A stretch of 64,000 bases of DNA. Origin: Lingula anatina. Its lineage: Eukaryota > Animalia > Brachiopoda. The translations under genes were made by a program, and so were the position numbers. The DNA lies in contig CM120643.1 in NCBI GenBank assembly GCA_051362555.1, forward strand, positions 18,108,848-18,172,847. Reading direction: 5' to 3'. Shown piece after piece: positions 1 to 63,734 of the stretch (positions are counted from its first letter, which is position 1; every line of letters starts with the position of its first letter). The notes below the pieces were generated by a model, which saw nothing but the letters and a program-made list of their open reading frames with translations, was not told the DNA's origin and ran no database searches.

Positions 1-326
1 TGTCCGCATCTTATGTAATTTGTGCGCAATATTTGTCAGGTAATGGCAAATTTTCATATAAAATGTCAATTACGATACGATAAAGAGAGAGCATGAAATA
101 ATAATTATAATGATAATAGCAAAACATCGACAGATGAATTTTTGAACAATTTTACAATGTGGAGCTGTACGATTTTTGAAGTTGTCTCATTTTTATTTTT
201 ACAATTAATACTAAAAATAATTTGCCATACATAGAAAATAAAAGAAAAATGAAAGATAGAAAAAAAACATTAAAAATCTTTCTTCGGTGGAAAAAGGGGG
301 GTGTCAAAAATAACAGAAAACTGAAA

Positions 327-361
327 TCACGTGATCACAACACGCTTTCAAAGATGGCTGC
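327..361 (+). promoter_or_regulatory. Spire proximal promoter motifs (E-box TCACGTGA; YY1-like AAGATGGC overlapping the ATG)
   Basis: Motifs are present in the CpG-rich patch at the start of exon 1. Confidence 0.4.
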
Positions 362-606
362 ACGGAGCGGCGGCGCACGAGAGAGGCTGTCGAAAATCGC
401 CGACAAACTCTCTCTCCAAGACATTTTGGAAGCCTTCAACGCCCCTCTGAACGAAGAACAAGCCTGGGCCATTTGCTTTCAGTGTTTGCAACACTTAAAG
501 AAACACTGGGACGCAGGGAACGCCATTTATATATATGGTCTCCCCTCCGTCTATGTTCACAAAGACGGAACGGTCTCTTGTGAAACTCCGACAACAGGAA
601 AGCAAA
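354..606 (+). CDS. spire: Spire exon 1 (KIND N-terminal part)
   Basis: MAARSGG...[26 protein letters not shown]...; donor GTAAGT at 607, phase 1. Confidence 0.93.
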
Positions 607-16034: not shown

Positions 16035-19000
16035 TTTTGCTAGGAGTGTCTAGAATAATTGAAAAACACCAAACAAGCATAGTTCCATGGCTTTTAATAT
16101 TGTTTATTTTCAGACGAAAACCTTAAAGGTTTTTTTGAACTTGCATGATTGGGTAATTTGGTAAAACAGTATGTCCTTCATCTCTTTTTGGTAACTGCAA
16201 TAAGCTTATCAACACATAACAAAAATTAAAGCATTGGTTTTCTTTCTTTCCCTTTATCATTTCTGCTTATGTCTTATTATTACTTAACCAGTTCTGCCAA
16301 GATATTGCAGGGGCAAATATTCTTCTGAGACAGTTTGTTTGTGGTATTGGAGCTACACATATATTATCTATTTTAATTCTTTTAATTTACCATAAAATTG
16401 GAACAACTATTGTAGTCTTTTTTCAAACTTTCATGAAATATGGTGATTGAAAAAATATAAAAATAGTTTATGGCTGTAATCATAGTAGTTTCCTGAATTT
16501 TGGCTATAATGTGATCTGAATTTCTGAGAAAAATTTATATTTATATATTTATTATTTTGTTTTATATAAGAAGAGTTTCTCCCATTTGGTGATATAGCAA
16601 AGAAAATGCAAACATTTGTTCCAAGTCTCTATTGAAAATGATACATTTTAAACACTCCCTGAAGATCAATTTTGTCCATTTCATGATTGCTTAAAAGCAC
16701 TTAATTTGATTATCACTGATCATATACTAGTATATTTCTACTTAATAGTTTAGATAAAAACAGCTTGGCAGATGAATGATTTAGACAGAAAAAAAGATTG
16801 CCTTTGTGATTTGAATTTTACTAAAAAAAATATAATATAACAAAATTGTTTTAAGTTAGCTGTTATCAGTCCCAGAGAAAAAAAATCATTTATTAGTTTG
16901 TGTTTATGCATGTTATGTATGTGTGAGTGCATGTTATGTATGTGTGAGTGCATGTTATGTATGTGTGAGTGCGTGCATATATGTGTACATGCATGTTTGA
17001 TTGTGCCAGATTGAAGAGTATCTAAAAATTACAAAAAAATGAATAAATACATCTCAAAATGAATATTACAAGTATATATAAGTATAACTTGCACAATTGT
17101 CCAGTACAAAATTGATAAAATTACTGAGTAGAAATGGCAAAGATGCCGTGATAGACTTGCACTGAATAACCCGTCTTATCAGGCAGTTGAAAACAGAGCC
17201 TTCCTTCAGCTGTGAGTCGGAAATAACTGTGTAATTTCATCCTGTTATTTTAGTAAATTAACTGAGACATTCTTATTGTGATATGCAGCCACTTTTTACC
17301 TTGTCATCTTAAGATGATTATCAAAATAATTGTGTACTTAATAATTTTTCTTTTTCTATTTTTTTTAGGTACAGAATGTCAGGTATGTATCAAGGATCAT
17401 CTCAAGACTTTTTTAAATGCTTTTTTTTTTAAATCATAGATAATTAGATCACATTAAGAATGGAATTTTATTAATTTATTTATATAATTAAGCTGTGTTT
17501 TCAGAAGTTTTAAAAAAGGTATTTTTGTTATAACAGATTACTTGAGACAGGTAAATGAACAAATGCAAACAATTATAGATGTAAAAACTTGTCAATGTAC
17601 ACGTAAATAGGTTGAATGTCAAGAGAAACTGGAAAAAAAGCATTAAGCACTAAGGTATCAGCTCTTTAGAGTGGCTAAAGCATTTTCTGGCAAAAGTAAA
17701 ATTAAACACCAGTAATGCTTTTTCTCCGTGGTTTCTGTCAAGGAAATTTATATTAAGTCTACTTAACGTTTCATGATAAACATCAATAGTGGTAAGCAAA
17801 TTTGGTTATGGTTTTGGGAAAAAAGTGGTTGGATCCAGACGATGTTATTTTCACAGTTCTGTACCTTATGACCCTGAGATGATAGGGGAGATAATTTTGA
17901 TAAAGCAGGAGAAAAAAAAAAAAGAAAATGTGTGCAGAAGCTGGGGAGCTTGTGCAGTTCAAATAAAAGGAGCTAAAGCAACTCATTGTGGGAAAAGAAA
18001 AAAGTGCACAAAATAATTGGTAAAAAAGGAAAGACCTTTAAGCACAATCATTTTAATTCTAGGTGATGCAAAATGCTATATTGGGCCTTTATAGAATATG
18101 AATGTCAATGTAGCCAGCTAATAATTCATTGATTACAAAATGCCTGAATATTGGAGGAAGTGTATTACTCTTAATTCAAAGTGATGTATAAAAAAGGATC
18201 TTTGAAATTGTCCTTTTCTTCTAAGAAAATTGAATCTATGTTTTTTTTTTTTTTTTCAAAAATAACTGCATGATGTTTCATTTTCTCTCCAGTATTAAGA
18301 ACGTCAAAATGACAAGGATTTTATCTTTGGCAAGTGCTGTTCATTATGTCAAAATGGCGTTATCTTCTAAATTTTTTTCAATAATTTCATAAATTGGTTA
18401 TCCTTAGATCATTGAATCCCTGGGGTTAGTCCTGTTCAGTGCTTTGGACTACGGTTTGCCAGAAAATGAAGAACAACGCTTGAGCCCTCTCTTGGAAAGT
18501 GCCATTGCTCGCATGACAGGAAATGATGCCGATAAAAGCTCCAGTGATGCCGGCCATGATGATGGTTGCCACAGCGATGAGGGTATTGCAGAAGATGAAG
18601 ATGAGGATGGAGGTCAAGGTCAAAGTGTTACATTTCAAGATGTCATACAGGTAGAGTATAGCATTATGGTTTGCCAAGCAAGATTGATTGTGATCCTTAA
18701 AGGTTTACTTGTTATGTAACTGAGACACTTGGTACTGAATTTTTTTGCTCAAGTTACGCAAAGCTTTAAATTAAAGCATGTTCAAGTCAGTTTCAGCCAG
18801 TTGAAAAATGTTTCATTGGATCTGTAAATATAGTTAGAAATATTCATGATGTTTAGATACTCTTTTTGAACTCGTGTTGGCAGTTTCATCTACATCTTAT
18901 CAAAGCAAGCTTAAGGTTTCAAAAAGTTGAGACCTAAACATGTATTTTTTCAGTCGATGTTTCAGCCAAAACAAAAGAAAAAATCTGTTACTCAAGATTT

Positions 19001-24029: not shown

Positions 24030-27000
24030 AATGCTTATTTATTTTGATAGTAAGCAGGATTTGCCTCATTTTGATCAAGATGATTTTCAGTGTAACAAAA
24101 TTGGAAAAGTGCGAGAAGGGAAATAGATCACTAAATGCTCTTTAAGACATCGCAAGCTGCAGTGTTGAAGTACTAATTAGTGTGATTTAACAATAATGCT
24201 TTGTGTGCTTTATTGGGCCGATTAATTTTGATCCAAGTTGTGCTGACTTGGTTCATTTTAAACTGACCCATTTTATTCTTTCTTTCTGATAATGGCTTCA
24301 TAATCCATGATAGATTTATCACTTGTGATTTTGACATCTCACTGCTTCCTTGCATCACATGGTAGTGTAGTAGCACTCACCGCACATTATAGATGTTAGA
24401 TTTAATGATAGAAAAAAAAAAAAAAAAAAAAAAAAACGATGGAGATGGTTGAAGTAGTTGTGGGGGTGGTAGTGGGTGTATCCATTGATCATCGTTGCTT
24501 GCATTATGTGTGATATAGTTGTTTTTATTGTGATAGATTTGTGTAGCTATGTTGCCATCATAATGGTGATGGTTGTTGTGTGAAGTGTGATAGTTCCTAT
24601 CGTGTTGAGCACTAGTAATGTTACTGTTATTGTTAGTGTTACTTATCAACAGTCAAATTACATGAATGCATTTTAATCATTTGTATTTTAAGATAATATG
24701 TTCATTTTGATAAATTTTTAAGCAATTTAATATTAGATGATGTTTGAGCACTGCTAGCAATGTTTTGCAGTTGCTTTGTTGTTGTTGTTTTTAAAACTAC
24801 CTTTTAATGTTGGATTGATTTTGATTTGATTTCCTTACGTGGTCACATTTTCATTGTTGCTGTGGCTTGCCTGCATTGTACTAAGTGTGACTCCTCTGCA
24901 TTGCATTGCCTCTGCTGTGTGAACAGATTTGAATCGCTGAAAATTTTTTTAAAATTGCTTTTTATCATTGCTGTGAAAACTCGGGGGGCTTTAATAATTA
25001 AGTAGTCTATACCTTGGAAGATTTAGAAACTAGGCTGCTAGAACATATGTGTTGGAGAACATAAGTTCCACTTCTCTGAGAAATAAGCTCATGTCCAATT
25101 TGACAGTCTCTGGTTGACAACGTATCACTTGAAAACAGAATTCTGTTAGTCAGAGGTAGGAACTAAGGATTATTTGTAGAGGGTCAAATTTTTTTTTTTG
25201 TAATTGATGTATTGATGAGGGATAAGGTGTCCCAAAGATGTGCAGCGATCAGGCAGGCCACATATGCAGTGATTTGAGCAGACATCTTATGTTCAGATAT
25301 TTTCATGAAGCAGAACCATTACTGTTCACATTGAATGGGCAGGTCATTTTGAAAAAAAAAAAAAAGATACAAAAAAAAATTGAAAACCATATTAAAGTTG
25401 CTTTTAACCAATCCATAGTTGAAGATGAGGAAAAACCAGCCAAACCAGTACCTTTTGTGCCAAAGACGCCACGAATGAAGACCAAGCTGAATCATTGGCG
25501 CAGTGAGGAGACCATTAACAAATCCATGCAAGATGTCCGTGTGTGGTCAGGGTCACAGACCAGCCTCGCAGCAAATAGTCCTGCCTTTGTCAATTATAGC
25601 CCTGATCCAAATACAATCGACTATCACTTTAAGCTGCTTGTGATTGGTGGAAGTAATGTAGGAAAGTCGTCTTTTATACTAAGATATTCTGATAACAAGT
25701 ACAGTCCTGCCTTTGTGGCGACAATTGGGATCGATTTCCGTATAAAAAATATCAAACATAGAGGGCGTACTGTGCAGCTACAGATTTGGGATACTGCAGG
25801 ACAGGAGAGATATCGCACCATCACCACTGCTTGCTTTCGAGGGACGATGGGGTTTGTATTGATGTATGATATCACGTCAGAGCAGAGTTTCAATATGGTG
25901 GAGGATTGGCTGACCCAGATTAGAGAAAATGCAGATGAGAAAGCCCCTGTTATTATCGTGGGACACAAATGTGATCTTGAAGACAAGCGTGAAGTGTCGT
26001 ATGAATTGGCACAAAAATTAGCTGATGATTTGGAGGTTGATTTTTATGAGGCCTCCGCCAAGGAAGACTACCATGTAAGCCTCGTATTTGACAAACTTGT
26101 AGACAAAATAACTAGAGTCTATAAGCCAAAAGCTCGAAATTTTAATAAAAATACTGTGCGTCTGCCAAGAAGGGCAGTTTCCATCAGAAGATTTGAAAAG
26201 AAATGGACATCAGATGTTGATAAGTGTAAATGCTAAGAATGTGTTAGATGTCACAGACTGTTGAGGTGGTGATAAGTTGTTGTGTTCTGAAGAACCTGCC
26301 AGGGGCATGTACCACAAGTGAACGTTAGCCAAAATTGGTTCAAACTTTGAGAACAAAATTTCAGGCAACTTTGACCCAATGTGAGTTGTTGGTAGTACAG
26401 TTAGACATACGAAACACTTTTTTTTAACAAGCAAGATTTAGTTTTACGTTTCAGGTGGATACTGCTTTATTTCATTTTATTTTAGTGGACTATCAAGGAC
26501 TTGTCTTTAACTGAAGTAGGTCATATTTTTAATCCAAAAGTTTAGACCATTTCCAGCTAAAGCTCTTTTGAAAACGTCCCCCAGGTGTTACTGAGTATAA
26601 AAGTTGAGATTTTTGACTGTGTTCGTAGAACATTGGTTGAGCTTTGCCGTTATGGCCCAAAATGTGTTAGGAGTGACAGACTTAAAGTAGAGATTTTCCA
26701 TTGTGTTCTTACTATGCATTATAGATGAAAGGGTTTGCCAGAAAACATCAAAGTCCCAAGATGCTGCTGACTTTAAATATGAATCTTGCATATGCTTTCA
26801 GCTGATTTTTGTTTATGATTGTTTTTCATGTGTATTTACTATCATAGTAGTATTTTTGTTTTAAAATAGATCTGTCACATCTTGTTTTATCTTCTCCATA
26901 ACATATTGTTTTTGTTTATTGTTGCTAAGTTAGCATTGGAAGTGAATATACATTATTTTACATAAATATCACGAAGATATTTTTCAATTGAATTTTATTT

Positions 27001-39000: not shown

Positions 39001-42000
39001 TTAGATGGCTAAGGCTGCGTTCACATGAAAAATCTATTTTCTAAAAATCTATTTGCGGTATCTTGTGATTACGGTCTATGCCCTGAATAACCCACGGCGT
39101 AATTACGGGCAGCGCGAGCCAGTTACTTCCAAAGCTGTATTTAATTCTCAGCGCTGCCAGTAATTACTCCGCGGGGTATTCAGGGCACAGACCGTGATCA
39201 CAAGATACCGCAACTAGATTTTTTTTTAGATTTTTAGAAAATAGATTTTTCATGTGAACGCAGCAGAAGTCTAAGTAGCCAGGCTAAACTTTTAGCTCAA
39301 AAACTGACTTTGGATTTTACCAAACCCCAAGTTCCATAAAGCGTGACAAGGGTGACAGTGGAATTTATTGCTGTTTGGCAGACAGTACAGTTTACTGTTC
39401 TCTGGTGACATTGTGAAGGGCCCCGGAGATATTATCAGTATTATTATTATTGTAGATTAAGAGGTCTGATATACTAAGCTTATAGGAAAGGAGAGATGAT
39501 GGCTGGTTGTTTTCCATATATAGTGCTATGAACATATACAAACTGTGGAATTCATACAGAAGGTCCCAGGTAAATAGATATGTGTTGTTTACTGAAAGCA
39601 GTGGATATTTATGATGAGATAAATACTATAATTTCTCTCAAATTTCATGTATTTTTTTCCAAGATTTATGATATAAAGATCTAAGGTATCTATTTGTCAC
39701 TCTGTTACTAAGTTCCCTGTACAGAATATCTGCATTGATTTTTTTAATTAAGAGCATGCATTGGGTTTTAGACATACAGCTGATTACTGGAAGATTAAAT
39801 ATAAATGAATTAGTAAAATTTTTAATTTCATAACAAAAGCATATAGATGTGATCACAGTTTGGTAGGTACTGGTACTCAGATATTGTGTAATATGAAGAT
39901 ACTACGAGTACAATTTTGTAATATAGTGTAGTTTTATGCAACCTATGTAAGAAAATAGCTTTTTCTTGAGAGGTTGAAATGGATACATTTTATGTAAGAT
40001 TGCGAGTGGCTAATGCTCTACTAGGACTGAAGTATATGTACAGGCAATGGCCTCTACCCCCCCCCCCCCCCCCCTCCACGCCCGGTAGTATTTAAATCTC
40101 TTTTTCTTAACATTGTAAGTTATATATGCCTTGTGTCAAAATGGCCCTTCCCGATTATCATCTTCACGCTGGTGATAATACTGTTGTATAATGTATTAAA
40201 ATTTTGCTTGGAGGAATGTGAGGTTATCTGACTGTGTAGATTCTGTAGTTAACTGAGGGTTGACAGGGAAGGGGGAGTGGGGTGGAGAGGGGGGACTGGT
40301 TTACTTGTCATCTTGATAATTAAATTTGTCCCTTTAAAAAGTTTATACATGGGTGTTTTGATTACTTTGATTACTTCAATTTTAAGATATATTCTAAACA
40401 TATGCTCCAGTGAGTTGAATTTTTTTCCTTTCTTTCCTCCTCTCTCCCCCACAAATTTATTAAGGTACATGTCTCAGGTGAAAAAAGATGCAGACATACT
40501 AGTAACCATGCAGCTAGGCATTGTATTAATCAGGATGATGAAGATCTTGATGAAGATTATGTGAAGTGGCATGACTGAATATGTAATAGACAACTGACAT
40601 TAAGAGATTGAAGCTGGTGAAATGTCTCCACAAGATAAAATATGTAGGACTGCACTCTTTCACTCAGTCTGCCATTTTTGATGGAACAGTTTTAATATGG
40701 TGAGATGTTAAGACTTCGAATTTGAAACAGAAATTTTTAAAAAGGTGAAGAATTACATGATTTAAGGGTGAGGATTTTGGCTAGAAATGAATGCAAATGA
40801 TCTCTAATGGTTGGAGTTCAGGCTTCAGATTTGAAATAGAAGTTTTCAATCAGGTAAAATGTTACATTATTATTTGTAGGAAAAGGTATTGATTAAGATG
40901 CAAGTGTCATTTAAATGAATGAATGTAGTTTCTTATTCATCGATTCATCATGTGAAATGTGTTTTAATATGGTCAAGAAGGGGGCAGGCCCATAGCCAGC
41001 AATTTCAAATGGGGGGTTCGTTTTCTGAAAAAGTAGACCTTTTACCATTAAACCTTCATGTACCTAGATCAAATTTTATCCAAAGTGGGCCTTTTCCAGC
41101 AAAAAGGGCGGTTCTTTTGAACTGGCTATGGGCCTGAGGGGGTGAGGTGTACTAGAGGTTGATAAAAAAAGCAGAATGTTTTAGTTGTCACAACAGGTAT
41201 ATTTGTACCATATACTTATGATTGCAGGGTTTTGATTAATTTGATTTAATTTGGTTTTGTTTAGACTGAATGGTTTTTACTGAAAAAATAAAAGAGAAAA
41301 AGGATAAGGACAGTAAATTTTAGGTTTTTTTCTACGTAACTAAAGGCACTTTCATTGTGCAGAAAATATGTTCTTTTCGTTTTACATTTTTTATGATTAT
41401 TGTCTTCCTTTACCCATTTTCAGGTTGAATGAAGGCTATTTTCAAGCAAAATTCCTTATGTGATATTCATTTTGGATTATTATATTTGACCATATTGTAT
41501 ATGTGTAAAGACCAACAGAGGACAGCAGCTCAAAATGTGATAATACTGAGTCGGCAGTAGTAAACAAAAAGGAAATACGCCACCTACAGTAAGGATAACA
41601 AAAAAATTCAGAGCAAAGAAGGAGAGTATAGAAACTTGTAATCATGAAGCTGACAGAGAAAGACATACATGATCTTGCTTCTGAGGGAGTCCATGAGCCT
41701 CCGCAAAATATCGAGCTTTTCGATATCGTCACTGCGCACTTTCACCCGGACATTATCAAAGGCCCACTGGGAAAAAACCTCAAGATGGTTTGCAAGGAGC
41801 TCAATGTCTCCTTTGATTTGGATGTAACTTATCATACTGATGGACCAAAAGAATTTTTCATTCACGGACCTTTTCAGGATATTGTGAAGTCATACCAGAT
41901 TTTGTGCATGATGCACGGACATTTGCTCAAACGCAACGAAAAACAGAGCAAGCATGAAAAGGTTGTTCCCGTAGAACACAGCCGATTGGGAACGCCAGCT

Positions 42001-45000
42001 GGCAAGAAAATACATCATTGTAAGAGAGGATAAGTAATAGGCTGGTTTAGGGAAAGTAGTGTAGAAGGGCTGTACTAATGTTTCTCTAAAACTTTTTTTG
42101 TATCATTTGGCAAATTTGAATTTCAACTCTGTTGTAGATTGGCTGAAAAATTGGTGATGGCAGTGGCGGCAGTTGTCTAATTCTCTCTCTCTCTCTCTCT
42201 CTCTCAAAAACGAGGAAGAAACCAAAAATTAAGATCCTGTAAACAATTTATCAACGGACCAATCCTTGAGGAAATGGATCAGTTTTAAATTTTGTCTTGA
42301 TAGCTTCCTTGTAAATGCCAATGCAACATTATATACACAAGGCATTAACACATTTCATGGTTGCCATCCTTAAAAATACATCTAAATCTAAATGTGGGTA
42401 TGAATTCTTCAAAATAGTGGAAAATCACACAAAATGGATGATAATATTCGTAATGATCACTGACCGTGACCCATTTAAATGATTGATAGCTTTTCAGTGT
42501 CTGGAGACAGAAAAGTAGACTTACAACTTTTCTCAGTGTGTTTTTTAAAATAACCAAGAGAACACTTATGACAGTTTTTAAGATAACCAAAAGAACATTT
42601 TTGACAGTTCTTGAAATTTTTCAATGCTTAAAGTTTACAAACAGGAAGAAATTTGACCATCTGTATTGAATTTGAGTTAGGAAAAAGGAAAAATGCGACA
42701 AAGAATGACAGTGATTTACAATGAAATGGAAAATATGTGTTTCTCCCCTTGAAATTGTTCTACTCTGCAATTTATGTCACAGTTCACTGAGGATAAACTG
42801 ATAAAGGTCAAAAAGGGCCACATGAAACATGAACCAATGTTCTCCCCCAAAAAGTTATTTGTCAAAAATATTCTCTCTCATCCAAGAATGTTACTGACTT
42901 TTGTGAAAAACAACCTTTACAGTGTATGGAAAAAAACTATTTGTTAATGTATTTTGTCTAGCAATAGTGTCCAATCTTAGTATTATGAAAAAAATTGATA
43001 CTAATTAATGAATTAATGAATAAAGAAAAAGGATAATTAATAATATACAAATTAATTAAATTTAATATAAGTTTATGATTGATTTTTAAAATAAATAAGA
43101 ATGTGTGAGCTGTGGTTTATTTTCCATATTTTTGGTTTTATTGAAATAATTATATTATTTTTTCCAAATCAATAGAAGATTGGCCATTGATAATCAAATG
43201 TATTTTTCTCTCATTAATAAAATGTCATGAGGTTACAAAGTTTATATTGATAATATGATACCAGTTAAAGCGAAGTAGATGCTCAGATTTGTGCACAGAT
43301 GCATGAATTGGACTTAGATGCCCTTTGCTTTGTTCTGAATTTTCCACTCGAAAGATTGCCACATCCAGATGAATACTCACCAACTGTGTAAAGGTGTTTT
43401 GTTGCAAAACAAACCCCCAAAATAAATATGTCAGTTTTGATAAAGGTGACCCTGACCTTCACTAGAGAGTTGCAAGTCACTGATGGCACCATTGCCCTTT
43501 TCAACAGAAAGAACTGACCTTGGTCGTCTTTATTATCTGATTGATCTCTGCCCTCGAGACAAATGATAATTTCTCCTTATTTTGAAGCAGGATGTTTTTT
43601 TTAAACAAATGAGTGATTGGTCAGTAGAAAAGTAAGTTCCAAATGACTGCTTGAACAAATATTTGAAGGGCAATGAAAGAAAGAGAAAAAACAAAACCAA
43701 ACGAAAAAAAAAAATTCAGTTGACTATTCCAACTACTGATAAAAGGGAACACAGAGTACAAAATTATGGAATTTATTTTCTTAAACATTACCATGGCTAA
43801 GATCCATAAGAACTTAAAAAAAGTAAAAACGTTTGATTTTATTGTATTGTTTTGATTAGATAAGTGATAGATTGACTTACAATAATAATTTGACATATAT
43901 TTACAGTTTTATCTTCAGAAAGTAGATTATTCTGGCACAAGTCCATGCCTAATGAATGGACTTTGAGTGTGCTCTTCACAGTGTGCAACAGGGGCAGATC
44001 CAGAGATATTTTCTTACAGTCTTCCATATTATATTTGTTGATCCTTCTTCCATCTTTTGACCGTCTTCCGACAAAAAAAAAAATAGATAATGTAAACTTG
44101 AAAATCTGACCGTCTTCCGGAAGACCCAGAAGATGGCCTAAATCTGCCCCTGTGCAATACAAATAAAGTTGAATTATTGACTTAAAATTTGTTGTTTTAT
44201 CATATTATGGTAAAAACTTGAAAATTTTGTCACTTAAAAATTAGTTAATATCTTAAAATACCTGGAACTGACTTGGCCATATTAGGTGACAAGCTTTTCA
44301 AAATTATCTGGAGGCCCATTTTCAAGTTTGATGAAAGTTGAAAAAATTACTTTGGCAGAGAATTGTCTTCTGACAAAATATTCAAGATTGACTAAATTTC
44401 CAAGTTTTTACCATAAAATTTGTTCTTAGTAATAATTTATAATTATTTTTATATATACAGGTGACAGTATACATTTTATTTTCAATTTCTGTTATAAAAA
44501 TGATACTAATGATGTTAAATGTATAATAAAAATTTTTATTGTTTTTTGTAGTGGAAACGTCCAGAACAACAGTGTCAGAATCTGACTGCAGCCCAGCCCC
44601 TACACGTAGACTAATTAAGGCTGATCTCTCCCTTCTGATCACTAGTTCTGTAGAGGTGAGTTTTTTGTAAGTTAATTATGCATGTGCATGTTTGCCCACA
44701 CATACATGTGCACAGACATTCATGAACACACAATCATATATAGTAGAATGAGCATGCTGGCACACACACAATTGCACACAGAGGAATTTACTAGCACACA
44801 CGAATACACATATACACAGACAAATACATTGAATTTCATCTTTCTCTCTCTCTTTCTACATGCACTCAGGCATACATGCGTGAGGGCCTGCAACACACAG
44901 TTTTGTGGAAAATTGACCAATGATCAAGCTTAATGTCATATAGATTTTTGGAGTTAATATTTTACACCCACCCTTGAAATTGCGCATTCCATCTTTACAT

Positions 45001-54624: not shown

Positions 54625-55822
54625 TTAGTCCACCTCCATAGAATTATCTCCACTTCCAAAATCGAATAAAGCACGGGCAAGGTCTTCCTTTTCTGCAGCT
54701 AGTGTCTCACAGATACGTTCCATCTTCACTCCCTGTTCGATAACTGTCCTCCCTAATTGACTCATGCTTGACAGGGGAAGATTTGGGTAACCTCTCGTGA
54801 AAAGGAGAACAAGACGACCGAATTTATCGAAACATGGTGAACCTGAAGCTCCATGCATAAAACTTGTCTGTAGAAGCTGCAGATTTTGATTCTCCACTCC
54901 CTCATATGCAGCTGGACCAAATGCAATTTTCCCATTGGTCAGAATTTCTTTAGTTTCAGAATCATCAAGGCTTTTCAATGGGCAACGATAATCTAACTTT
55001 TTAATGTCGCCATTATTGTGTCCAATGATATGCACATAGTCTGTGGTTGCTGCAACTCCCCACCGTGGGGCGCAGTCCAAGACAACCTCAGTTTTGAGTT
55101 TGAGAATGGCCACATCTAGTTCTTTATTAGACCAAACTATATCTGGTTCCAGTCCAAGCCACTCAGTGCTGTGCTGACTGTAAAGATCCTCAAACTGGAA
55201 TGACACCTTGGTCTGAGTTTTATCACCAAGAACTCTGACATCATTTCCTACATCTGAAAAAAAAATAGTATGCGTACATGGGCACTCAATTATATAAGAA
55301 ATGTGATAAAGAATTTCATAATAGATCATATATGAAATTCAATCAGTTATAGTTCACATAAATTATGACTGAGTTCCAGTTTCAGCAGTATCCATCAGTA
55401 TTTGACTTACTCTCATAACTGAGATGGAAACTGGCGAATGGCACTTGCAATGGTACAAAAAAGACCTATACATAGTAATTTTCTGAGCCTTTTTGGACAG
55501 ATAATTTTAAAATACTCTGATAACTGAAGGACATAATGCAACTTTCACGACATTTTTCCTGTATATCGTATGCCTTTAAAGCGATCTTGTTAGTTAAAAA
55601 ACTTACTAAGAAAAATCATTTCTAAAACATGTAGATTGGTCATGATGAACTCCTTTCCCAGCTGAAAACAACTTCCTGTTACACCACAAGGTCCAACAAG
55701 TATCCCCACATATTTGCTATACTCCATGATTTTCCTGAGAAGGCTGATTGTCTCGCTGTTATCTTCATTTTTAGTGAAAAGAGCCGTCATCTGGTGCTTA
55801 ATGTTGCCTTCCTTGTCCCCTC
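54625..55822 (-). CDS. Two terminal exons (55607-55822, 54625-55253) encoding a FAM111-like trypsin (S1) protease
   Basis: His motif GSCFQLGKEFIMTNLHVL, Asp motif ELDVAILKL, IIGHNNGDIKKLD, Ser motif TSFMHGASGSPCFD, IEQG; catalytic triad intact. Confidence 0.88.
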
Positions 55823-58112
55823 CTTTCAAAAGAAGTCAAAAATGCAATGTGTGTGTTTCTATTTTAGAGTGAAAAAAAAAAGCAAATCCAGGATTTTAAT
55901 TAAGAAGTGAAAGGAGGTGGGTGGGCAGTCAACAACGACAATTTAAACTGTTTTTCTTGTGTCATCTGGATCTTTCTTGTGTTGGAAAAAAATAAGGAAA
56001 CTTAAAGAAAAGTGAAAATTGCAAAAAATTATCCTTAAATCATCTTATGCTAAATAAGAAGATAAACAGAAAGACAATTTGCATTCAACATTGTTACTTA
56101 GCATTAGTATCCCCACATGACCTAATAGTATACAGTCGTGCTTCTTTTATTTCTGATTTATCTCATTGTTTACTGAATGCTGAAACTTCAGTCACTTTCT
56201 AAGAGGGCGGGGGGGGGGGGGGGAACAAAATTAAGGCTTTTTACATTTTATTTAGGACAGGAACAGAGGGTTGGGTGGGTGGAGGGGGGAGGGAAGGGAT
56301 GCAGGAAGAGGGGGTGTAGGTGGGGAATACTCACCAATTGGTTTGACATCCATTTCATGCTTGACACATATAACTTGTTTATTGACTTCCACTCTTTGGC
56401 GCAAACAGACATCACAGAGGAATCGACAGCCACAGGTCATGGGGGTAATGGCTGAAATCACATTTGGAATGATACACGGTTGCTTCTGAATATCTTTGGG
56501 GACGCACAGAACATGTTGATTCCTGGACTAACAGATCCGCGGATCAAATATGGCCGACCCACTCGAAAGCATGCCACATAATAGACACTGAACAGATTCT
56601 TGCATGGACTATGCAGCAAACTTTTAAGAGTGTCGGCCATATGTCATCCACAGACCTGTTAGTCTACAGATCAACTTTGGTTGTGAATGCTGCCTTAGAC
56701 AGGATTGCAGGCAGAAATTTCAAATGGAGAATTCTTCTTTTTTTTTGATGGTGTACCCTTTACCTCCATTAGCTGATCCAACTTAAGAAATGGCTTACAA
56801 GCAAGAAAGATCAAATGCTGATTTGGAATGGACCTTTGCAGTCCCTCAGTATCTGCCCTGTCTACAGGCTGTCAGCCAGCTGAGACAGAATACTATATTT
56901 ATAACAATATTTGCTTTCTAATTCTTGCACTGCATTTACACCTGAGGGTAGCCCATTCTGATGTCTCCTCTGATCTTTCTAGAAACATGAAAATACCAAC
57001 TGTGAATCTGGGATTATAAAAAAACCCACAAAAATCAATCCAAAAATCCATTCCCAATTGCATAAATATATTATAAAATATGATCTAAGAGCTGGTACAT
57101 AAAGTTTCATCTTTATCTTCGTATATCTTTAGTGCATTTAATTTCGAGGCCCAATTCCAAATTTAACTGCTGCTAGTTTGGTAAAACATTTTTGGGAATG
57201 GATTCTTGTCACAACTAATGGGAACAACTTATCAAGACAGGATGCACAACACAAAATCACGAAATGTTCAGTTCTGACAAAATAGCTTTTTACCTGATTC
57301 GCTTCAAACTACATATATCCTAGTAAAAGTTGAAATCAACTAATTATAAGTATAATTTACTGTCGCTTATTTTAATGTATAATGATGCCTATTATCTGAT
57401 ATAATGATCATCTCTGGCTTTGTGAGATAAAATACAAAATCACTATTAATAATGTCACGGTACAAAAAATATCAGTTTTGCAAAACTGTGCAAAGTCACC
57501 ATGTTTTGTGTGTCACTTTTGTATTGCTGTCTAAGAGTTAACCCCACCTCAGGCAGAAACTCTTACAATTTCTAGTCTCGTATAACATCATGCAGTGCTC
57601 ACAGCCTCATTATGGCTGATTTCAGTTGACTTCCATTACAGCGGATTATGGTAATTACTAGATCTTTTCAATGGGGGAAAATTGTGAATTTTACAGATAA
57701 TTTCCTAAAATGAAAACACTCCTATAGAGTGGTAGCAACAAAATTAAAGAGCAGGCACTCCTATAGTTCTTTTCTATGCAGTAAAAGCAGATCAAATGGT
57801 TTACAGAAATAAAATTAATTTTGATACTTAAAAATTATGTACCTGAAAATTTGAAAATTTTTCCCCATTGAAAAGTTCCAGTCATTACGGTAAGTAACAG
57901 TACTTACCCACATCCTGTACCAAGCAATACAAGCAATGCCTGGCCTGAATCTTATCATCACGACAGGGCCCGGCATCATACAGGGAACTCCTTGGTAATT
58001 TGGCCTGGAAAAATATGTCATCGTTTTTCAAACAGATTTTTCAGTTATTTTAAATGACTTGGATTTAACATTTCATGAACAAATTTTTAATAAAAAGATT
58101 TGGTTTATGTTT

Positions 58113-58175
<63 letters not shown>

Positions 58176-60578
58176 GTGTGTGTGGGGGGGGGGGGGATTA
58201 ATCATAAAATCTTCTAAGACCAATACTGTAGTCAATTTACAATAATTGGTTAAATATTTTTCCTTATCAAATTTAAAGACTGGTTCAACTTAGAGTGTAA
58301 ATTGACTAGTGGCACCTGACATCTCCCAGAAAATCCATTTTCAAATTTTTACCTTGTAAAGCTTCATCAGTCTTTCACTGACTTCCTGAACTGTGAACCT
58401 ATCATCGGGATCTTTTCTGAGACAGTTGGCAATGATTTGAGCATATTCCTGAGCCACATCCACGGGCCATTCCTGAAAATTCACAGTACAACAACAAGTG
58501 CTTGTTTGATTCCAAACAAAGTTCACTTACAAAATACTAGGTTCTGAATCAACTGGTTTTAAATTAATTTACTGTTTTGAGGACGAAACTCAACTGTCGC
58601 TTTTTTTTTTTCGTCTTACCAAGCGTTTATCCATGATTTTGGATAGTTTTCCTTTAATCTTGGTTGGTTTGAGAAACCCCTCACGGTCCCACTTCTCATG
58701 GATTCGTCTTCTCTTGTCATCTTCCTCCAGAGCTGTCACATTGGTCAGCAGTTCTAAGAACACTGGAACATAGTTTATCAATATTAATAATAATAATATA
58801 CAAGAAGAACCTACACATGCATATACAAAATTATGAAATACACATTTTAAAAACATTTATACTACAAAAATTATTTTTAAAGAATTAAAATAAATGAAAT
58901 ACAAATTTAAAGTTTCCTATAAAATTCAGCAATTTTTTATTTTTAAATAAAATTAAAATGAGCGAGATTCATACCCAATTCAAACTGTTGAGAAAATCAC
59001 AATGTAATATGAACCATTTTTTCAATTTTTTTAAATTTTTATCATGATGAATGAAATTCACCAGTCTCCACTTTTAACATATGTGACTCAAAAATTTAGA
59101 AACTTAGAACTCAAAAACTGGTTCACAGATCCTTGGTAATAAGGTAAAAGTGCTGACATTTCAAGGAAAATAACTACTTTAAATTAAAAAAAAAAAGACT
59201 TATTAAATGTTATTGTGTGACTAAGCCTGCTGTTTAGCTAGCTCATAAACGTTAGACTGAAAGTGGGACATACCAACTCCCTGATCTCAGCATCTTTGAA
59301 AAAAAAAACTATTTTTTTTATTATTGAATAATAAAAAAAGGGATTATACTAACCAACTCCAAGACCATAGCAGTCTGTTTTTTCAGTAGGTGTTCCATGG
59401 CTTAGATAATCAGGGTCCTGATAGCCAAGAGAAAAACGTGTCTCTGTGGAAACAAGAATAAAATTTTCCATCACCTAAACAATCAATGGAAAATACTGTC
59501 AATCTCGCATATAATGGACTGGACTGAGACTTTGAATTCATTACATCATAAGTGAGTTACCAGTTGATGCCAGTCCCTTATTATTGAGGTCTACAGTAAC
59601 TGTATGTTACATACACAATGAATCATGATACGAAAGAATCAAGATATAAATATTTCTTGATAGATTACATAATTTGGCCGATAGATTTATATTACAAAAA
59701 TTCTTATTTTCTGTATAGCATATGAGAAGCTTTTACTCCACAAAATATAACAATACTATAACATTTTTAACTTGTTGCTTCCACTCCATTTTCAGAAATG
59801 ATGACTTTAAAAATACAGCATCTGTAAAATTCACAGTTTTCCCCCCATTGAAAAGATCAAGGAATTACCACCATGATACTTACTGGACTGGGATATGTCA
59901 GATGTATAATGTCTCTTATAAGGCCGGGCAAAGCCTAAATCCCCCAGTCTGGCATTGAGCTGACTATCTAAGAAAACATTGGCTGACTTGATATCACGGT
60001 GATATATGCGGTTTGAGCTGTAACAGAAAAAAAATAAATGAATGAAAACTTTCGTGTTTTTTTTTTCATTGGTGTAAATAGTAAAAAAGAAAATTCCATA
60101 TTTTGCTTCCAACTTATATTTCTCCAGAAGCTTGGGAGTAATTTTCTTTTGAAGCTTGTAGAGGGAATGGGCCAGAAAATTTAAGCTGAATAAATTGAGT
60201 GGACTGAAGCGAGAATCCCTGCAGAGATAGACCAATCATGCTGGATCAATAACTTTTAAACTGAACACAGCCATAAATTCGCTGTTCAAAAACAGTGTCC
60301 AATGTCCCAAACCATTTTGTTTATTTAAGAAAAAAAAGGTTTACCCATCTTCCTGCAAGAACAACACTGCGTTGGCAAGCTGGGCACTGATTCTAAGACG
60401 GTGTTTCCAGTTCATCAGTTCTCTTGATTTCAAATTCTTCTTCAAATCACTGCCAGGCATCAAGATATACACAAGGCATTTTTGGTACCTTGAAATATAA
60501 TAAATTTTCATATAATAATATTTACTGAAATTTAACCAAGCCTTCTTTCTGTTTTTTTTTCTTTACAAACCATGTCAA

Positions 60579-60613
<35 letters not shown>

Positions 60614-63600
60614 ACTGATAAAAAAGTAATGCTGACTGTATAGAGGGGATCTGATGTGGGGAGTGAGGAGGGGAAAACTGAAAGATATAGATCGCATTCA
60701 CAACGAGCTGAGCCATGGCTTTACAAATCCTGGGACTAAATATGGCGGACGTACATGAAAGAAAAACTGCCTAATCTTTTAATAGTCTCTCCGCCTCTCA
60801 CACGCCTCCCCATGTGTCGTCCCAATGGAGCTGAGATTTAATGACCGTACCCCCGCAGGGACGAAGCATGGGGAGGCGTGTGAGAGGCGGAGAGACTATT
60901 AAAAGATTAGGCGGTTTTTCTTTCATGTACGTCTGCCATATTTAGTTCCAGGATTTGTAAAGCCATGGCTCAACTCGTTGTGAATGCGATCATAGTGACA
61001 GCAATGAGTTCCAGCTCCTTAGTGACAGAAATACATACTGTATGTTGGGGTACCAATACATCTTCTTTAAATATAATTGTAACATTAACAAATGTTATGA
61101 GCATCATCCTGCATTAGTATAAATCAAAGTCCTAGAACTCACCCATCTTCACACACTTCACACACGCCCAGAGGGGTCAACAGGTACACATAGTTGATCT
61201 GGGCAAAGTCCTTTTCCTAAATTTAGATTGAAAAAAAAATCTATAAGTAAAAAGAAACACTGCAAATGATTATTTGCCTAACTGGATTTATATATACTTC
61301 ACACCATGACCCATAAACTAAATAGCAAAGATTCATATGTTTAACAGTAATCGTTGAAAGGGGCCTTATACTTACCCTATTATATTCTAGGTCTCCTTGC
61401 TTGCTTCCAAGCTTCAATCTTTTCACTGCCAAATATTTCCCTTTCAGAGGACCATCATATGGATATACACCTGTTACATAAGACTCAATTAGTATTAAAC
61501 AGCAAACAATTCTGTACAGCGAAACAAGCTTTGCCATCCACACCTGTCTATCATTCAATTACTTGAAAATTCCACTAGAGAAATTTATATTCCCATTAAA
61601 AGATATAGTTACTACTAGCAGGCTTTCATCTGCAAAAGTGTCAAATCACAACATGGTAATGAGCATTAAATAAATAGATACAAGTTTCCAAGTGTCAATC
61701 ATAGATGTACCTGTAAAAACGCCCCCAAATCCACATTCCTCATCTGTGGCAATACAGTTTTTTGGTGCAAAATTTTCAGTGATCTTCTGCAAATGTTTGT
61801 ATTCAAAGTAGTAAATGTTTTCTACGTCTGAAAAAATGGGCACAGAGTCCTCTTCTTCAACCTTTGGTTCTGTTGCTGGTGTCAGTGATGATGATGTTAC
61901 TGTAGTTGAATTTTCTCCTCCCTCATTACTGGGCAGTTCTGAGACCCCTCCATTTAGGTTTAACTTAGCATTTTCTGATGGAATCGTTGACCCGCTTTCC
62001 AAATTATCCACAATCCCCGAATCCCCTCCTTGTGAAAAATTAGAAACAAGTTGAATTCCGCTTTGATCTATACTGATGTCTTCTCCCTTTGTATCGCCAG
62101 GAAATTTCACAAATGTCTGGCTTGCATTGTCAGGAGTTGGGGTCAAGGTCTCTTCAAGGTCAAGGTCAGTGGTTTCAATGTCCATATTTGGTGGGTCTGA
62201 TGAGGGAAATTTGTAAGGCTCATCTTCATTGGTTACTGATTGAAGAGTGTTATATGCATCCTCATTGGCTGCAGGATGGTCAGTATTTTGAAATACTTCC
62301 AGTGACAGGTCACTCACGGGACGTTGGTTTGATAAGGTGCTGCTAGGTGTCTCTGGGATACTGCTTATGGAACTCGCAGGACTTTGGGTTCCAGTTCCTG
62401 AATCACTTGGGCGCAAAAATGGGCCACTTTCATCAGAAGACCCTGCAACATGAGAAGAAAGAGTGTGACTAGAATTTTAAAAATCTACAGGTTTATTTAA
62501 CATTAGTATCAATGATTATTCTCAAACTTCAATGCTCTTTGACAGTGCACAACTGCACTAGTCTAGTTATATACATACTTTCAATTCCTTTTGACATGAA
62601 ACAGTTGTACTGTACTGCATTTTTAATCAACAATGTCAACTCAGTTAAACTTCACTACTAATTCATAAAATGAGTTCTGAGATTTCGACATATTTCTAAA
62701 ATGTTGACATATACCTAAAATAATCATTATCTATCTTTTTTCTACAATAAGGTGTTGTATGATAAAAAGCAGTATCTACATAATCAATAAATTGACAATG
62801 TGTCGAAATTGTGATGTTTGTGATGTTGTAGAAAGTGTAGCACTGTCAGACCAAATTGGGGGGGGGGGGGGGGGGGGGGGGGGAGGGGAGGGGGATTATC
62901 TGTTCTACTATCTCCACCATATGCCCCAATCACAGTGTTAGATGATAGTTTGCAATTCCTTAGACAAATCAGTTATTATCTCAGTTTTAAGTATTTGGCC
63001 AATCACTGAAACAATTGTACAATTATCTTTAAGTTATCAAATTCTCTGATGTGTGTTTTAGACAAAGTGTGGCAGTATGAAGTCTGCAGATATCCTCGAC
63101 AACCTACCGCTGAAACTTCTTGGCAGTTGATGCTTTGTCAGTTTATCAATGTAGAATTCACAAGTTTCCTGCAAGTAATATAGTCAAAAAGATTCTTTTG
63201 AGCATTTACCTCACGTTTCCTGTAAGTACGAACATTCAATCAGATTATTACCCTTAATTCATTATTACTTCTATCATTTTGAAAAAAAAGTTCTTTAAAA
63301 AAGAACAATAAATCTTCTTTAAGTTCATGCACAATCAAATAGTTAACAAATAACAGGTTTTAATAGTAATAGCAGGAAGAAGGGAGGCTGGGGTAGCACT
63401 AACACTCGCCAATTTAGCCAAATGCTAACACTGACTTAAATTGGCTAAAGAAAAAGGGCTAGATTTGACATGTTTTAGCCAAATTATAGCCATTTTAATA
63501 ACAAATTGACAAAAGTGTGGTGATATGGCTAAGCGAAAAAAATTGCAAGCGCTACCCCAGGGAGGGAATAATGAAGGGAGGAATGGACTAAAAAAGAATT

Positions 63601-63734
63601 CATCATTGGATGTAAAAGACATTATAGATGTCTTCTCATACTTACCCCAGGGTATTTCTGTATATATCTTTTAATAAGCTTTCTGGTAAATCCCATTTCT
63701 CTCAACCTTTTACTCATTTCATCATCTGCTGGTG
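54625..63734 (-). CDS. Multidomain protein: UBA-like + low-complexity linker + Pelle/IRAK-type kinase + RING-like finger + FAM111-type trypsin-like serine protease (5' end not identified, probably beyond the window)
   Basis: 14 exons in transcription order: 63734-63646, 63168-63108, 62442-61711, 61470-61376, 61216-61143, 60488-60345, 60017-59884, 59443-59354, 58762-58620, 58472-58353, 58004-57908, 56451-56335, 55822-55607, 55253-54625. All introns are GT-AG, all phases are compatible and there are no internal stops (2741 nt). Confidence 0.85.
56335..58004 (-). CDS. Two exons (57908-58004, 56335-56451) encoding a RING-like zinc finger
   Basis: CLYCLVQDVAITPMTCGCRFLCDVCLRQRVEVNKQVICVKH: CxxC...CxC...CxxC...CxxH ligand spacing. 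Confidence 0.72.
58117..58172. repeat. (AT)n microsatellite
   Basis: Visible directly in the sequence. Confidence 0.9.
58353..61470 (-). CDS. Seven exons of the Pelle/IRAK-family kinase domain
   Basis: YLAVKRL; EYNREKD; CLVYILMPGSDL; LMNWKHRLRISAQLANAVLFLQ; IYHRDIKSANVFLD; DLGFAR; GYQDPDY; KTDCYGLGVVFLELLT; CLRKDPDDRFTVQEV. Confidence 0.92.
60690..60991. mobile_element. Young palindromic MITE (~125-bp arms) in a kinase-gene intron
   Basis: GATCGCATTCACAACGAG...GCCTCCCCATG and its near-perfect reverse complement; ATA on both flanks. Confidence 0.88.
61711..62442 (-). CDS. Large exon: Ser/Thr/acidic linker and kinase start
   Basis: ...YYFEYKHLQKITENFAPKNCIATDEECGFGGVFTG; matches the IRAK/Pelle F-x-Y-x-x-L-x-x-x-T-x-N-F pre-kinase motif. 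Confidence 0.88.
63108..63734 (-). CDS. Two exons (63646-63734, 63108-63168) encoding a UBA-like segment
   Basis: DEMSKRLREMGFTRKLIKRYIQKYPG|ETCEFYIDKL; MGF loop typical of UBA domains. Confidence 0.6.
63388..63560. mobile_element. MITE copy 2 (opposite orientation to 21281-21453)
   Basis: CTGGGGTAGCACTAACACTCGCCAATTTAGCCAAATGCTAA...GCGCTACCCCAG. Confidence 0.8.

What the first reader, a model, noticed from the sequence alone, without database searches (positions are those of the whole stretch)
54625..63734. Unusual innate-immune-type fusion: UBA-like + IRAK/Pelle kinase + RING + FAM111-like protease in one ORF
Seen: 14 exons splice into one continuous frame. The kinase C-lobe exon (58353) joins in phase to the RING exons (58004, 56451), and these join in phase to protease exons with an intact His/Asp/Ser triad. 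Established: Pelle/IRAK kinases normally carry an N-terminal death domain and no catalytic tail; FAM111A/B are trypsin-like proteases with antiviral and DNA-protein-crosslink roles. Inference: a lineage-specific signalling protein combining ubiquitin binding, phosphorylation, possible ubiquitin ligation and proteolysis, perhaps a self-contained immune sensor-effector. I do not recognise this architecture as characterised.
Basis: partly seen in the sequence, partly recalled or inferred. Interest (0 to 1): 0.8.

Follow-up and report, generated by a model that had tools for sequence, protein, structure and literature searches.

The report
Kinase scaffold with swappable protease tail
RNA reads show that this brachiopod gene splices an IRAK-type kinase, a RING-like zinc finger and a FAM111-type protease into one protein, and relatives in brachiopods and amphioxus carry a caspase in the same place, so it likely acts as a caspase-style immune switch whose protease is predicted to turn on when the CARD domain at the start of its database model clusters.

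Summary
The fusion is real. Fourteen AG/GT exons give one 912-aa frame. RNA reads span 12 of 13 junctions, including the three decisive ones. The frame is 98.9% identical to residues 261-1172 of Lingula anatina LOC106174184, whose model adds an N-terminal CARD beyond the window. Kinase catalytic residues and the protease triad are intact. It recurs in Lingula paralogues and in amphioxus, with all eight zinc ligands kept in 10 of 10 rows. The tail after the RING varies: FAM111-type serine protease (two Lingula genes), classical caspase, or a divergent caspase-family peptidase. None of 142 other FAM111-like representatives has a kinase. The protease is predicted to dimerise through the FAM111A-type helix (0.69, best control 0.02; possibly from memory). 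Best reading: CARD clustering switches on a dimer-dependent protease, as in initiator caspases. RING ligase activity and ubiquitin binding are unproven, and no immune role was tested. My ten paper searches found no description; the main Lingula immunity paper was not held.

The parts
63646..63734 (-). Exon 1 in window: first part of the second of two UBA-like helical repeats (full-length residues about 261-289). The CARD and the first repeat lie upstream of the window.
   Evidence: Pfam UBA_BIRC2-3 E 0.00098, 19.6 bits, below the 27.2 cut-off; three helices at pLDDT about 70
63108..63168 (-). Exon 2: end of the UBA-like repeat
   Evidence: junction to exon 3 in reads
61711..62442 (-). Exon 3: long Ser/Thr/acidic low-complexity linker, then the start of the kinase with an altered glycine-rich loop
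61376..61470 (-). Exon 4: kinase N-lobe with catalytic Lys570 (codon 61423-61421)
61143..61216 (-). Exon 5: kinase alpha-C helix with Glu586
60345..60488 (-). Exon 6: kinase hinge with Tyr617 at the gatekeeper position
59884..60017 (-). Exon 7: HRD catalytic loop (Asp666, codon 59995-59993) and DLG motif (Asp684)
   Evidence: Pkinase E 2.8e-8
59354..59443 (-). Exon 8: kinase activation segment
58620..58762 (-). Exon 9: kinase C-lobe
58353..58472 (-). Exon 10: end of the kinase C-lobe; phase-0 intron to the RING
57908..58004 (-). Exon 11: RING-like finger, ligands Cys844 and Cys847
56335..56451 (-). Exon 12: RING-like finger, ligands Cys859, Cys861, Cys865, Cys868, Cys881, His884. It ends at a phase-1 intron, at the point where family members' tails diverge.
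55607..55822 (-). Exon 13: FAM111-like protease N-terminal helix (911-927, predicted dimer interface) and catalytic His956 (codon 55631-55629)
54625..55253 (-). Exon 14: protease with Asp1010 (55116-55114), Ser1100 (54846-54844) and the stop codon
   Evidence: Trypsin_2; FAM111A is the best solved relative, E 4e-10

Best explanation
The gene is spliced into one kinase-RING-like-protease protein, and it likely works as a death-fold-recruited protease switch of innate immunity or cell death: the CARD of the database model would cluster copies on an upstream CARD platform, and this is predicted to dimerise and so activate the FAM111-type serine protease, the job a caspase does in its paralogue and in amphioxus relatives. 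Shown: the spliced fusion; intact kinase and protease catalytic residues; a conserved eight-ligand finger; the same kinase-RING unit followed by three different peptidase tails. Predicted: the protease dimer through its first helix. Inferred: CARD-driven clustering; trans-autophosphorylation of the Pelle-type kinase in the cluster; ubiquitin-chain sensing by the UBA-like repeats; a regulatory role for the RING-like finger; cleavage after Phe (FAM111A's preference), including possible self-cleavage at Phe907 between RING and protease. The CARD-less isoform would be a form that cannot be recruited.
For: Splicing. Purifying selection: 26 of 41 listed read differences are synonymous, against about 29% expected (p 5e-6). 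CARD in the full-length model (E 2e-7) and in both Lingula paralogues; a Death domain in 3 of 6 amphioxus members and in the hemichordate member. The tail after the RING is a classical caspase in P0157/P0277 and P0160, a divergent Peptidase_C14 in P0161, P0162, P0163 and P0170, and Trypsin_2 in P0001 and P0004/P0147. FAM111A is dimer-dependent through its alpha-1 helix (PMC10920703, passages). The window's match to it starts in that helix. The dimer model scores 0.69 against a best control of 0.02, with runs agreeing in at least 67% of contacts and pLDDT at least 79, interface 911-927. The mark was reached by 21 of 30 microbial pairs and 0 of 23 single chains, and by 7 of 16 animal pairs. FAM111-like proteases fused directly to PYRIN, CARD or Death occur in 4 of 142 representatives. 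Bacterial death-like domains carry either caspase or trypsin effectors (PMC8195603, passages).
Against: No substrate, partner or challenge-induced expression was tested. The dimer pass may come from memory of solved FAM111A; only 1 of 7 eukaryotic pairs without an older solved relative reached the mark. A model of the isolated domain says nothing on whether dimerisation depends on the CARD; FAM111A dimerises on its own. The CARD exons lie outside the window, so their link rests on the database model, and an annotated isoform lacks the CARD. Short reads join neighbouring exons only, and in runs X6 and X2 the protease exons are several times deeper than the kinase exons, so a shorter protease transcript is not excluded. 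The 41 differences are the best-supported rows the tool printed, not a full list. The paralogue P0004 has an OTU domain where this protein has UBA-like repeats, which points to ubiquitin signalling as much as to death.
Confidence: 0.5

Rival explanations
1. A non-lethal signalling hub like MALT1 or RIPK2: the kinase, UBA-like repeats and RING-like finger build or read ubiquitin chains for NF-kB-type signalling, and the protease trims regulators or cuts itself off to end the signal.
For: The kinase-RING unit is the conserved part and the tail is the variable part. The paralogue has an OTU domain in the UBA-like position. The hemichordate member ends at the kinase. Atlas leads show kinase+RING and kinase+U-box clusters in other eukaryotes (scores 0.83-0.86, leads only).
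Against: The finger lacks the Arg that follows the last ligand in many E3 RINGs and, in Lingula, the Pro before it (alignment; the rule is recalled). A peptidase tail is kept in 9 of 11 aligned members, and the triad is intact. The hemichordate record may be cut short.
Confidence: 0.28
2. A FAM111A-like genome-maintenance or antiviral protease that is brought to ubiquitylated DNA-protein crosslinks or viral proteins by its UBA-like repeats, with the kinase as a regulator.
For: FAM111A is the only convincing solved relative of the protease. Its roles in replication and antiviral defence are stated in PMC9798293 (one of six parts read).
Against: No UBL pair or PIP box was detected; PMC9798293 places the UBLs in vertebrates and the PIP box in mammals. 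The CARD and the caspase-tailed sisters point to death-fold signalling.
Confidence: 0.12
3. A recent, weakly selected exon-shuffling product or read-through, with the protease a passenger or a separate gene.
For: The protease begins at a phase-1 intron. The combination was found in Lingula only. Protease exons are deeper than kinase exons in two runs.
Against: A paralogue only 33% identical keeps the same CARD-kinase-RING-protease order. Junction reads occur in three studies. Synonymous differences are in excess. The kinase and RING exons have no stop codon before the protease.
Confidence: 0.05

Closest known systems
IRAK4 / Pelle kinases (RLK/Pelle family)
   Same: The best solved relatives of the kinase are plant RLK/Pelle kinases (E 1.6e-30) and IRAK4 (E 2.2e-23); the first listed kinase outside the family, NEK2, scores 2.4e-12. 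A death-fold domain sits at the N-terminus.
   Different: CARD instead of a death domain; about 420 residues between CARD and kinase; DLG for DFG and an altered glycine loop; RING-like finger and protease after the kinase. Orthology to IRAK4 was not tested.
FAM111A/FAM111B serine proteases
   Same: Trypsin_2 domain, His-Asp-Ser triad, N-terminal helix, predicted dimer through that helix.
   Different: No UBL pair or PIP box; fused behind a kinase and a finger, which none of 142 other representatives is.
Initiator caspases and MALT1 (death fold + dimer-activated protease; recalled mechanism)
   Same: Death fold at the start, protease at the end, activation likely by clustering. The paralogue P0277 is CARD-kinase-RING-caspase.
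   Different: The protease is a chymotrypsin-fold serine enzyme, and a kinase and a finger lie between the two ends.
Kinase-prodomain caspases of Macrostomum and annelids (PMC11463336)
   Same: A kinase in front of a protease in a lophotrochozoan.
   Different: Described as species-specific. The part of the Macrostomum sequence shown in the supplement lacked this family's motifs by eye. The three Lingula accessions are absent from the supplement.
Plant U-box receptor-like cytoplasmic kinases and other kinase+RING/U-box proteins
   Same: Kinase followed directly by a RING/U-box-fold domain (Atlas leads).
   Different: No death fold and no protease in the listed Pfam sets; scores under 0.9; no homology of the finger was shown.

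Membership tests
RLK/Pelle/IRAK kinase family | Kinase domain closest to IRAK/Pelle/RLK kinases | tested here: met
   The best solved hits are RLK/Pelle kinases and IRAK4; the database hits outside this family are plant RLKs
RLK/Pelle/IRAK kinase family | Catalytic Lys, alpha-C Glu, HRD..K..N, Mg-binding Asp | tested here: met
   K570, E586, H664, D666, K668, N671, D684 are invariant in 11 of 11 rows; DLG for DFG and an altered glycine loop; activity not measured
IRAK proper (IRAK4/Pelle orthologue) | N-terminal death domain of the DD class | tested here: not met
   CARD E 2e-7, no Death hit at E<=1; amphioxus and hemichordate relatives do have DD
IRAK proper (IRAK4/Pelle orthologue) | Groups with animal IRAK1-4/Pelle/Tube in a tree | not tested
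   No animal IRAK sequence was among the stored proteins; the tree has plant kinases only as outgroup
RING finger | Eight zinc ligands in RING spacing | tested here: met
   C-x2-C-x11-C-x-C-x3-C-x2-C-x12-C-x2-H, kept in 10 of 10 rows that reach the region; ligand 4 is Cys and ligand 8 is His, a variant
RING finger | RING fold | tested here: inconclusive
   Model of the paralogue P0157 finger, pLDDT 74. Foldseek: no hit at E<=0.001, but the top ten rows are all RINGs. VIA best Z 4.2, rmsd 2.9 A over 52 residues, MUL1 RING. Pfam zf-C3HC4_3 E 0.23 on P0277 only.
RING E3 ligase | E2-binding surface with the linchpin Arg after the last ligand (recalled rule) | tested here: not met
   Glu885 follows His884, and no aligned member has Arg there
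RING E3 ligase | Ubiquitin transfer from an E2 | not testable with these tools
   Needs an in vitro assay
FAM111-like serine proteases | Trypsin_2 domain with intact His-Asp-Ser triad, closest to FAM111A | tested here: met
   Asp and Ser columns are kept in 70 of 71 rows, His in 57 of the 58 rows that have a residue there
FAM111-like serine proteases | Dimer through the N-terminal alpha-1 helix | tested here: met
   Prediction only: 0.69 against best control 0.02, interface 911-927; may be from memory of solved FAM111A
FAM111A/B orthologue (vertebrate type) | Two N-terminal UBL domains; PIP box in mammalian FAM111A | tested here: not met
   No such hit; a RING-like finger precedes the protease. 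Invertebrate FAM111-like proteins also lack UBLs (PMC9798293)
UBA domain | Three-helix bundle with MGF loop that binds ubiquitin | tested here: inconclusive
   Pfam below cut-off; three helices at pLDDT about 70; a two-repeat profile scores 8.1 bits on the hemichordate member, but 1 of 20 shuffles scored higher
Caspases / paracaspases | Peptidase_C14 catalytic domain | tested here: not met
   Absent from P0001; present in the paralogue and in amphioxus relatives

The most novel reading that the evidence does not exclude
An undescribed, bilaterian-old family of 'death fold - Pelle kinase - RING - protease' proteins in which the last module is an exchangeable cartridge: classical caspases, divergent caspase-family peptidases and FAM111-type serine proteases have replaced one another at the exon boundary after the RING. 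In brachiopods a FAM111 protease then stands in for a caspase as the executioner of a kinase-licensed death or immune complex, which would make death-fold-triggered proteolysis an ancestral job of FAM111 proteases.
Probability: 0.35. Interest if true: 0.85.

Novelty: new variant of a known kind. Interest (0 to 1): 0.68.

Why it matters
In vertebrates IRAK kinases, RING ligases, initiator caspases and FAM111 proteases are separate proteins. Here one scaffold, shared by brachiopods and amphioxus, joins a death fold, a Pelle-type kinase, a zinc finger and a protease, and the protease has been exchanged between two unrelated folds that are both switched on by dimerisation. Lingula holds caspase-tailed and FAM111-tailed paralogues side by side, so it can be tested directly whether a FAM111 protease does a caspase's work. 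It also bears on what FAM111 proteases did before they gained UBL and PIP modules.

Tried and rejected
No whole genome is held, so upstream exons and the paralogues' intron positions could not be read. No RNA holder was listed by index; raw-read runs of the same species label were laid instead. A single-sequence AlphaFold2 model of the whole protein was poor (pLDDT 36) and was used only for the CARD and UBA-like helices. Pfam gave no RING hit on the exons or on P0001. The Atlas gave no usable hit for the finger and only leads under 0.9 for residues 515-1172. The wide structural search could not be run. Two separate gains of the serine-protease tail: the kinase tree separates the two Lingula trypsin-tailed genes (96/90), but the AU test does not reject a single clade (p 0.152). 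The protease tree is unresolved (61 of 71 rows kept, 10 short rows left out). The number and direction of swaps are therefore open. No earlier scan notes exist. Paper searches found no description; one search was uninformative, and the locus name occurs in 0 papers. Gerdol et al. 2018 on Lingula immunity is not held and could mention the gene. A short kinase-like frame at 60970-61113 was rejected as an exon because reads skip it.
Full report
Observation. The region was read on the minus strand. Fourteen exons with AG acceptors and GT donors join into one frame of 912 residues and a stop. Eight RNA runs of the same species label were laid on the region, at 6-26% of each run and a likeness cut of 90%. 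The kinase-to-RING junction is seen in 20 reads (5 of 8 runs) and the junction inside the RING in 54 reads (5 of 8). The RING-to-protease junction is seen in 41 reads (4 of 8), plus 58 reads on rows shifted by 2-3 bases with the same net intron length. Twelve of the 13 junctions are shown; the first was not among the printed rows. In the stranded libraries exon reads lie on one strand only. Of 41 exonic differences printed in the two read tables, 26 are synonymous, against about 29% expected without selection; these are the best-supported rows only and may mix populations. The fusion is therefore real and under selection.

Identity. The last exon finds one long protein, P0001, named by its sources as LOC106174184 of Lingula anatina. 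The window's frame equals its residues 261-1172 at 98.9%, with ten substitutions and no gap, so the window holds another allele or a very recent copy. The full model adds a CARD (E 2e-7) beyond the window; isoform X2 lacks it. The kinase's closest solved relatives are plant RLK/Pelle kinases and IRAK4, and its catalytic residues are invariant in the family alignment. The protease's only convincing solved relative is FAM111A, with triad H956, D1010, S1100.

The finger. Residues 844-884 hold eight Cys/His in RING spacing, with Cys at ligand 4 and His at ligand 8. All eight are kept in 10 of 10 aligned rows that reach the region. Pfam does not recognise it on P0001. A model of the paralogue's finger (pLDDT 74) has RING domains as its top Foldseek rows, none at E<=0.001, and its best VIA score is only Z 4.2. 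It is best called RING-like. The Arg that follows the last ligand in many E3s (recalled) is missing, so ligase activity is doubtful. The two UBA-like repeats are tentative.

A search with RING plus protease over 1.84 billion representatives gave 144 hits; only P0001 and a Lingula paralogue, P0004, match across the finger. P0004 is CARD-OTU-kinase-RING-protease, 33% identical over 706 columns. None of the other 142 has a kinase. Four of the 142 carry PYRIN, CARD or Death domains, and others carry Mab-21, HEPN or Roc-COR. A search with kinase plus finger (lengths 644-2051 only; 120 of 252 hits listed) gave nine animal rows among plant kinases. They include a third Lingula gene whose longer model is CARD-kinase-RING-caspase (P0157/P0277, 47% identical). 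Six are amphioxus proteins with the same kinase and finger, followed by a classical caspase (1), a divergent caspase-family peptidase (4) or a short record end (1); three of them start with a Death domain. One is a hemichordate Death-kinase that ends at the kinase. A profile of the finger hits 17 of 284 stored proteins, all of this family and including the rows it was built from. The divergent tails show no significant pairwise match to the classical caspase tails; their motifs look metacaspase-like to me (recalled). No mollusc, annelid, echinoderm or cnidarian member appeared, but the word-seeded, length-limited search cannot show absence.

History. In a kinase tree the ten animal rows form one side against 18 plant kinases (100/99), which does not test their relation to true IRAKs. 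The caspase-tailed Lingula gene falls between the two serine-protease-tailed ones (96/90), and the caspase-tailed amphioxus protein falls among the divergent-tailed ones. A single clade of the serine-protease-tailed genes is not rejected (p 0.152), and the protease tree is unresolved. Tail exchange is certain from the architectures; its number and direction are not. In the window the tail starts at a phase-1 intron right after the finger, where the family's alignment also diverges. This fits exon shuffling (inference).

Mechanism. FAM111A needs a dimer, formed by its first helix, to be active; it prefers Phe at P1 and cleaves itself after Phe334 (PMC10920703, passages). The window's match to FAM111A starts in that helix. 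Residues 893-1162 are predicted to dimerise through 911-927, score 0.69 against a best control of 0.02, contacts agreeing at 67% or more, pLDDT at least 79. The mark was reached by 21 of 30 microbial pairs and 0 of 23 single chains, and by 7 of 16 animal pairs; the pass may be from memory of FAM111A. By spacing, Phe907, Leu920 and Met924 would match Phe334, Val347 and Val351 (inference). Initiator caspases are also dimer-activated through death folds (established knowledge). That two unrelated dimer-activated proteases occupy the same slot behind a death fold suggests that the slot's job is proximity-triggered proteolysis. I therefore read the protein as a CARD-recruited protease switch in immunity or cell death (0.5), with the kinase and ubiquitin-related modules as regulators. 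A MALT1- or RIPK2-like signalling hub is the main rival (0.28). No partner, substrate or induction was tested.

Literature. Ten searches found no account of this gene or family. PMC11463336 (passages and supplement searches) reports kinase-prodomain caspases in Macrostomum and an annelid as species-specific and does not list the three Lingula accessions. PMC2575513 (passages) describes amphioxus 'shortcut' caspase fusions, with no kinase-caspase in the passages shown; its supplements were not read. PMC8195603 (passages) documents bacterial death-like domains with caspase or trypsin effectors. PMC9798293 (part 3 of 6) covers FAM111 evolution without such fusions in that part. PMC6321704, PMC9573974 and PMC12373286 (passages) added nothing on this family. 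Gerdol et al. 2018, the Lingula immune survey, was not held and remains the most likely place for a prior mention.

Verdict. The parts and the death-fold-plus-protease logic are known. The four-module scaffold with an exchangeable protease appears undescribed in what I could search. New variant of a known kind; interest 0.68.

Noticed in passing
window 180-626 and 18408-18719 (+), probably running to about 49671: KIND-domain exons (Pfam E 1.6e-16 and 2.3e-18) of a large neighbouring gene that looks like Spire (name recalled); it converges on the finding's gene.
   Followed up: partly
window 25226-26236 (+): An intronless Rab-type small GTPase frame (Pfam Ras E 1.9e-57) inside the span of the KIND-domain gene; possibly a retrocopy or nested gene.
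   Followed up: partly
window 60690-60991: Inverted repeat with 134-nt arms, 96% complementary, in the intron after exon 5; reads of both strands pile on it, as for a dispersed MITE-like repeat. Smaller ones lie at 56515-56675 and 57646-57893.
   Followed up: partly
protein P0004 residues 241-362: The paralogue has an OTU domain where this protein has UBA-like repeats; its catalytic Cys motif is present, but Tyr seems to stand at the usual His position (motif recalled, not tested).
   Followed up: no
proteins P0006, P0087, P0134, P0053, P0114, P0099, P0074, P0117, P0123: FAM111-like proteases fused to PYRIN (Ptychodera), CARD and Death (amphioxus P0087, P0134), Mab-21/cGAS-like, HEPN and Roc-COR domains: the domain behaves as a mobile immune effector in invertebrates.
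   Followed up: partly
proteins P0161, P0162, P0163, P0170: Amphioxus members end in a divergent caspase-family peptidase with no significant pairwise match to the classical caspase tails tested; the motifs look metacaspase-like (recalled).
   Followed up: partly
window 54911-54914: A compensating one-base insertion and deletion in runs X7 and X8 keeps the protease frame.
   Followed up: no
window 41632-42033 (+): A 133-aa protein-like frame with no confident Pfam family; gene assignment not worked out.
   Followed up: no
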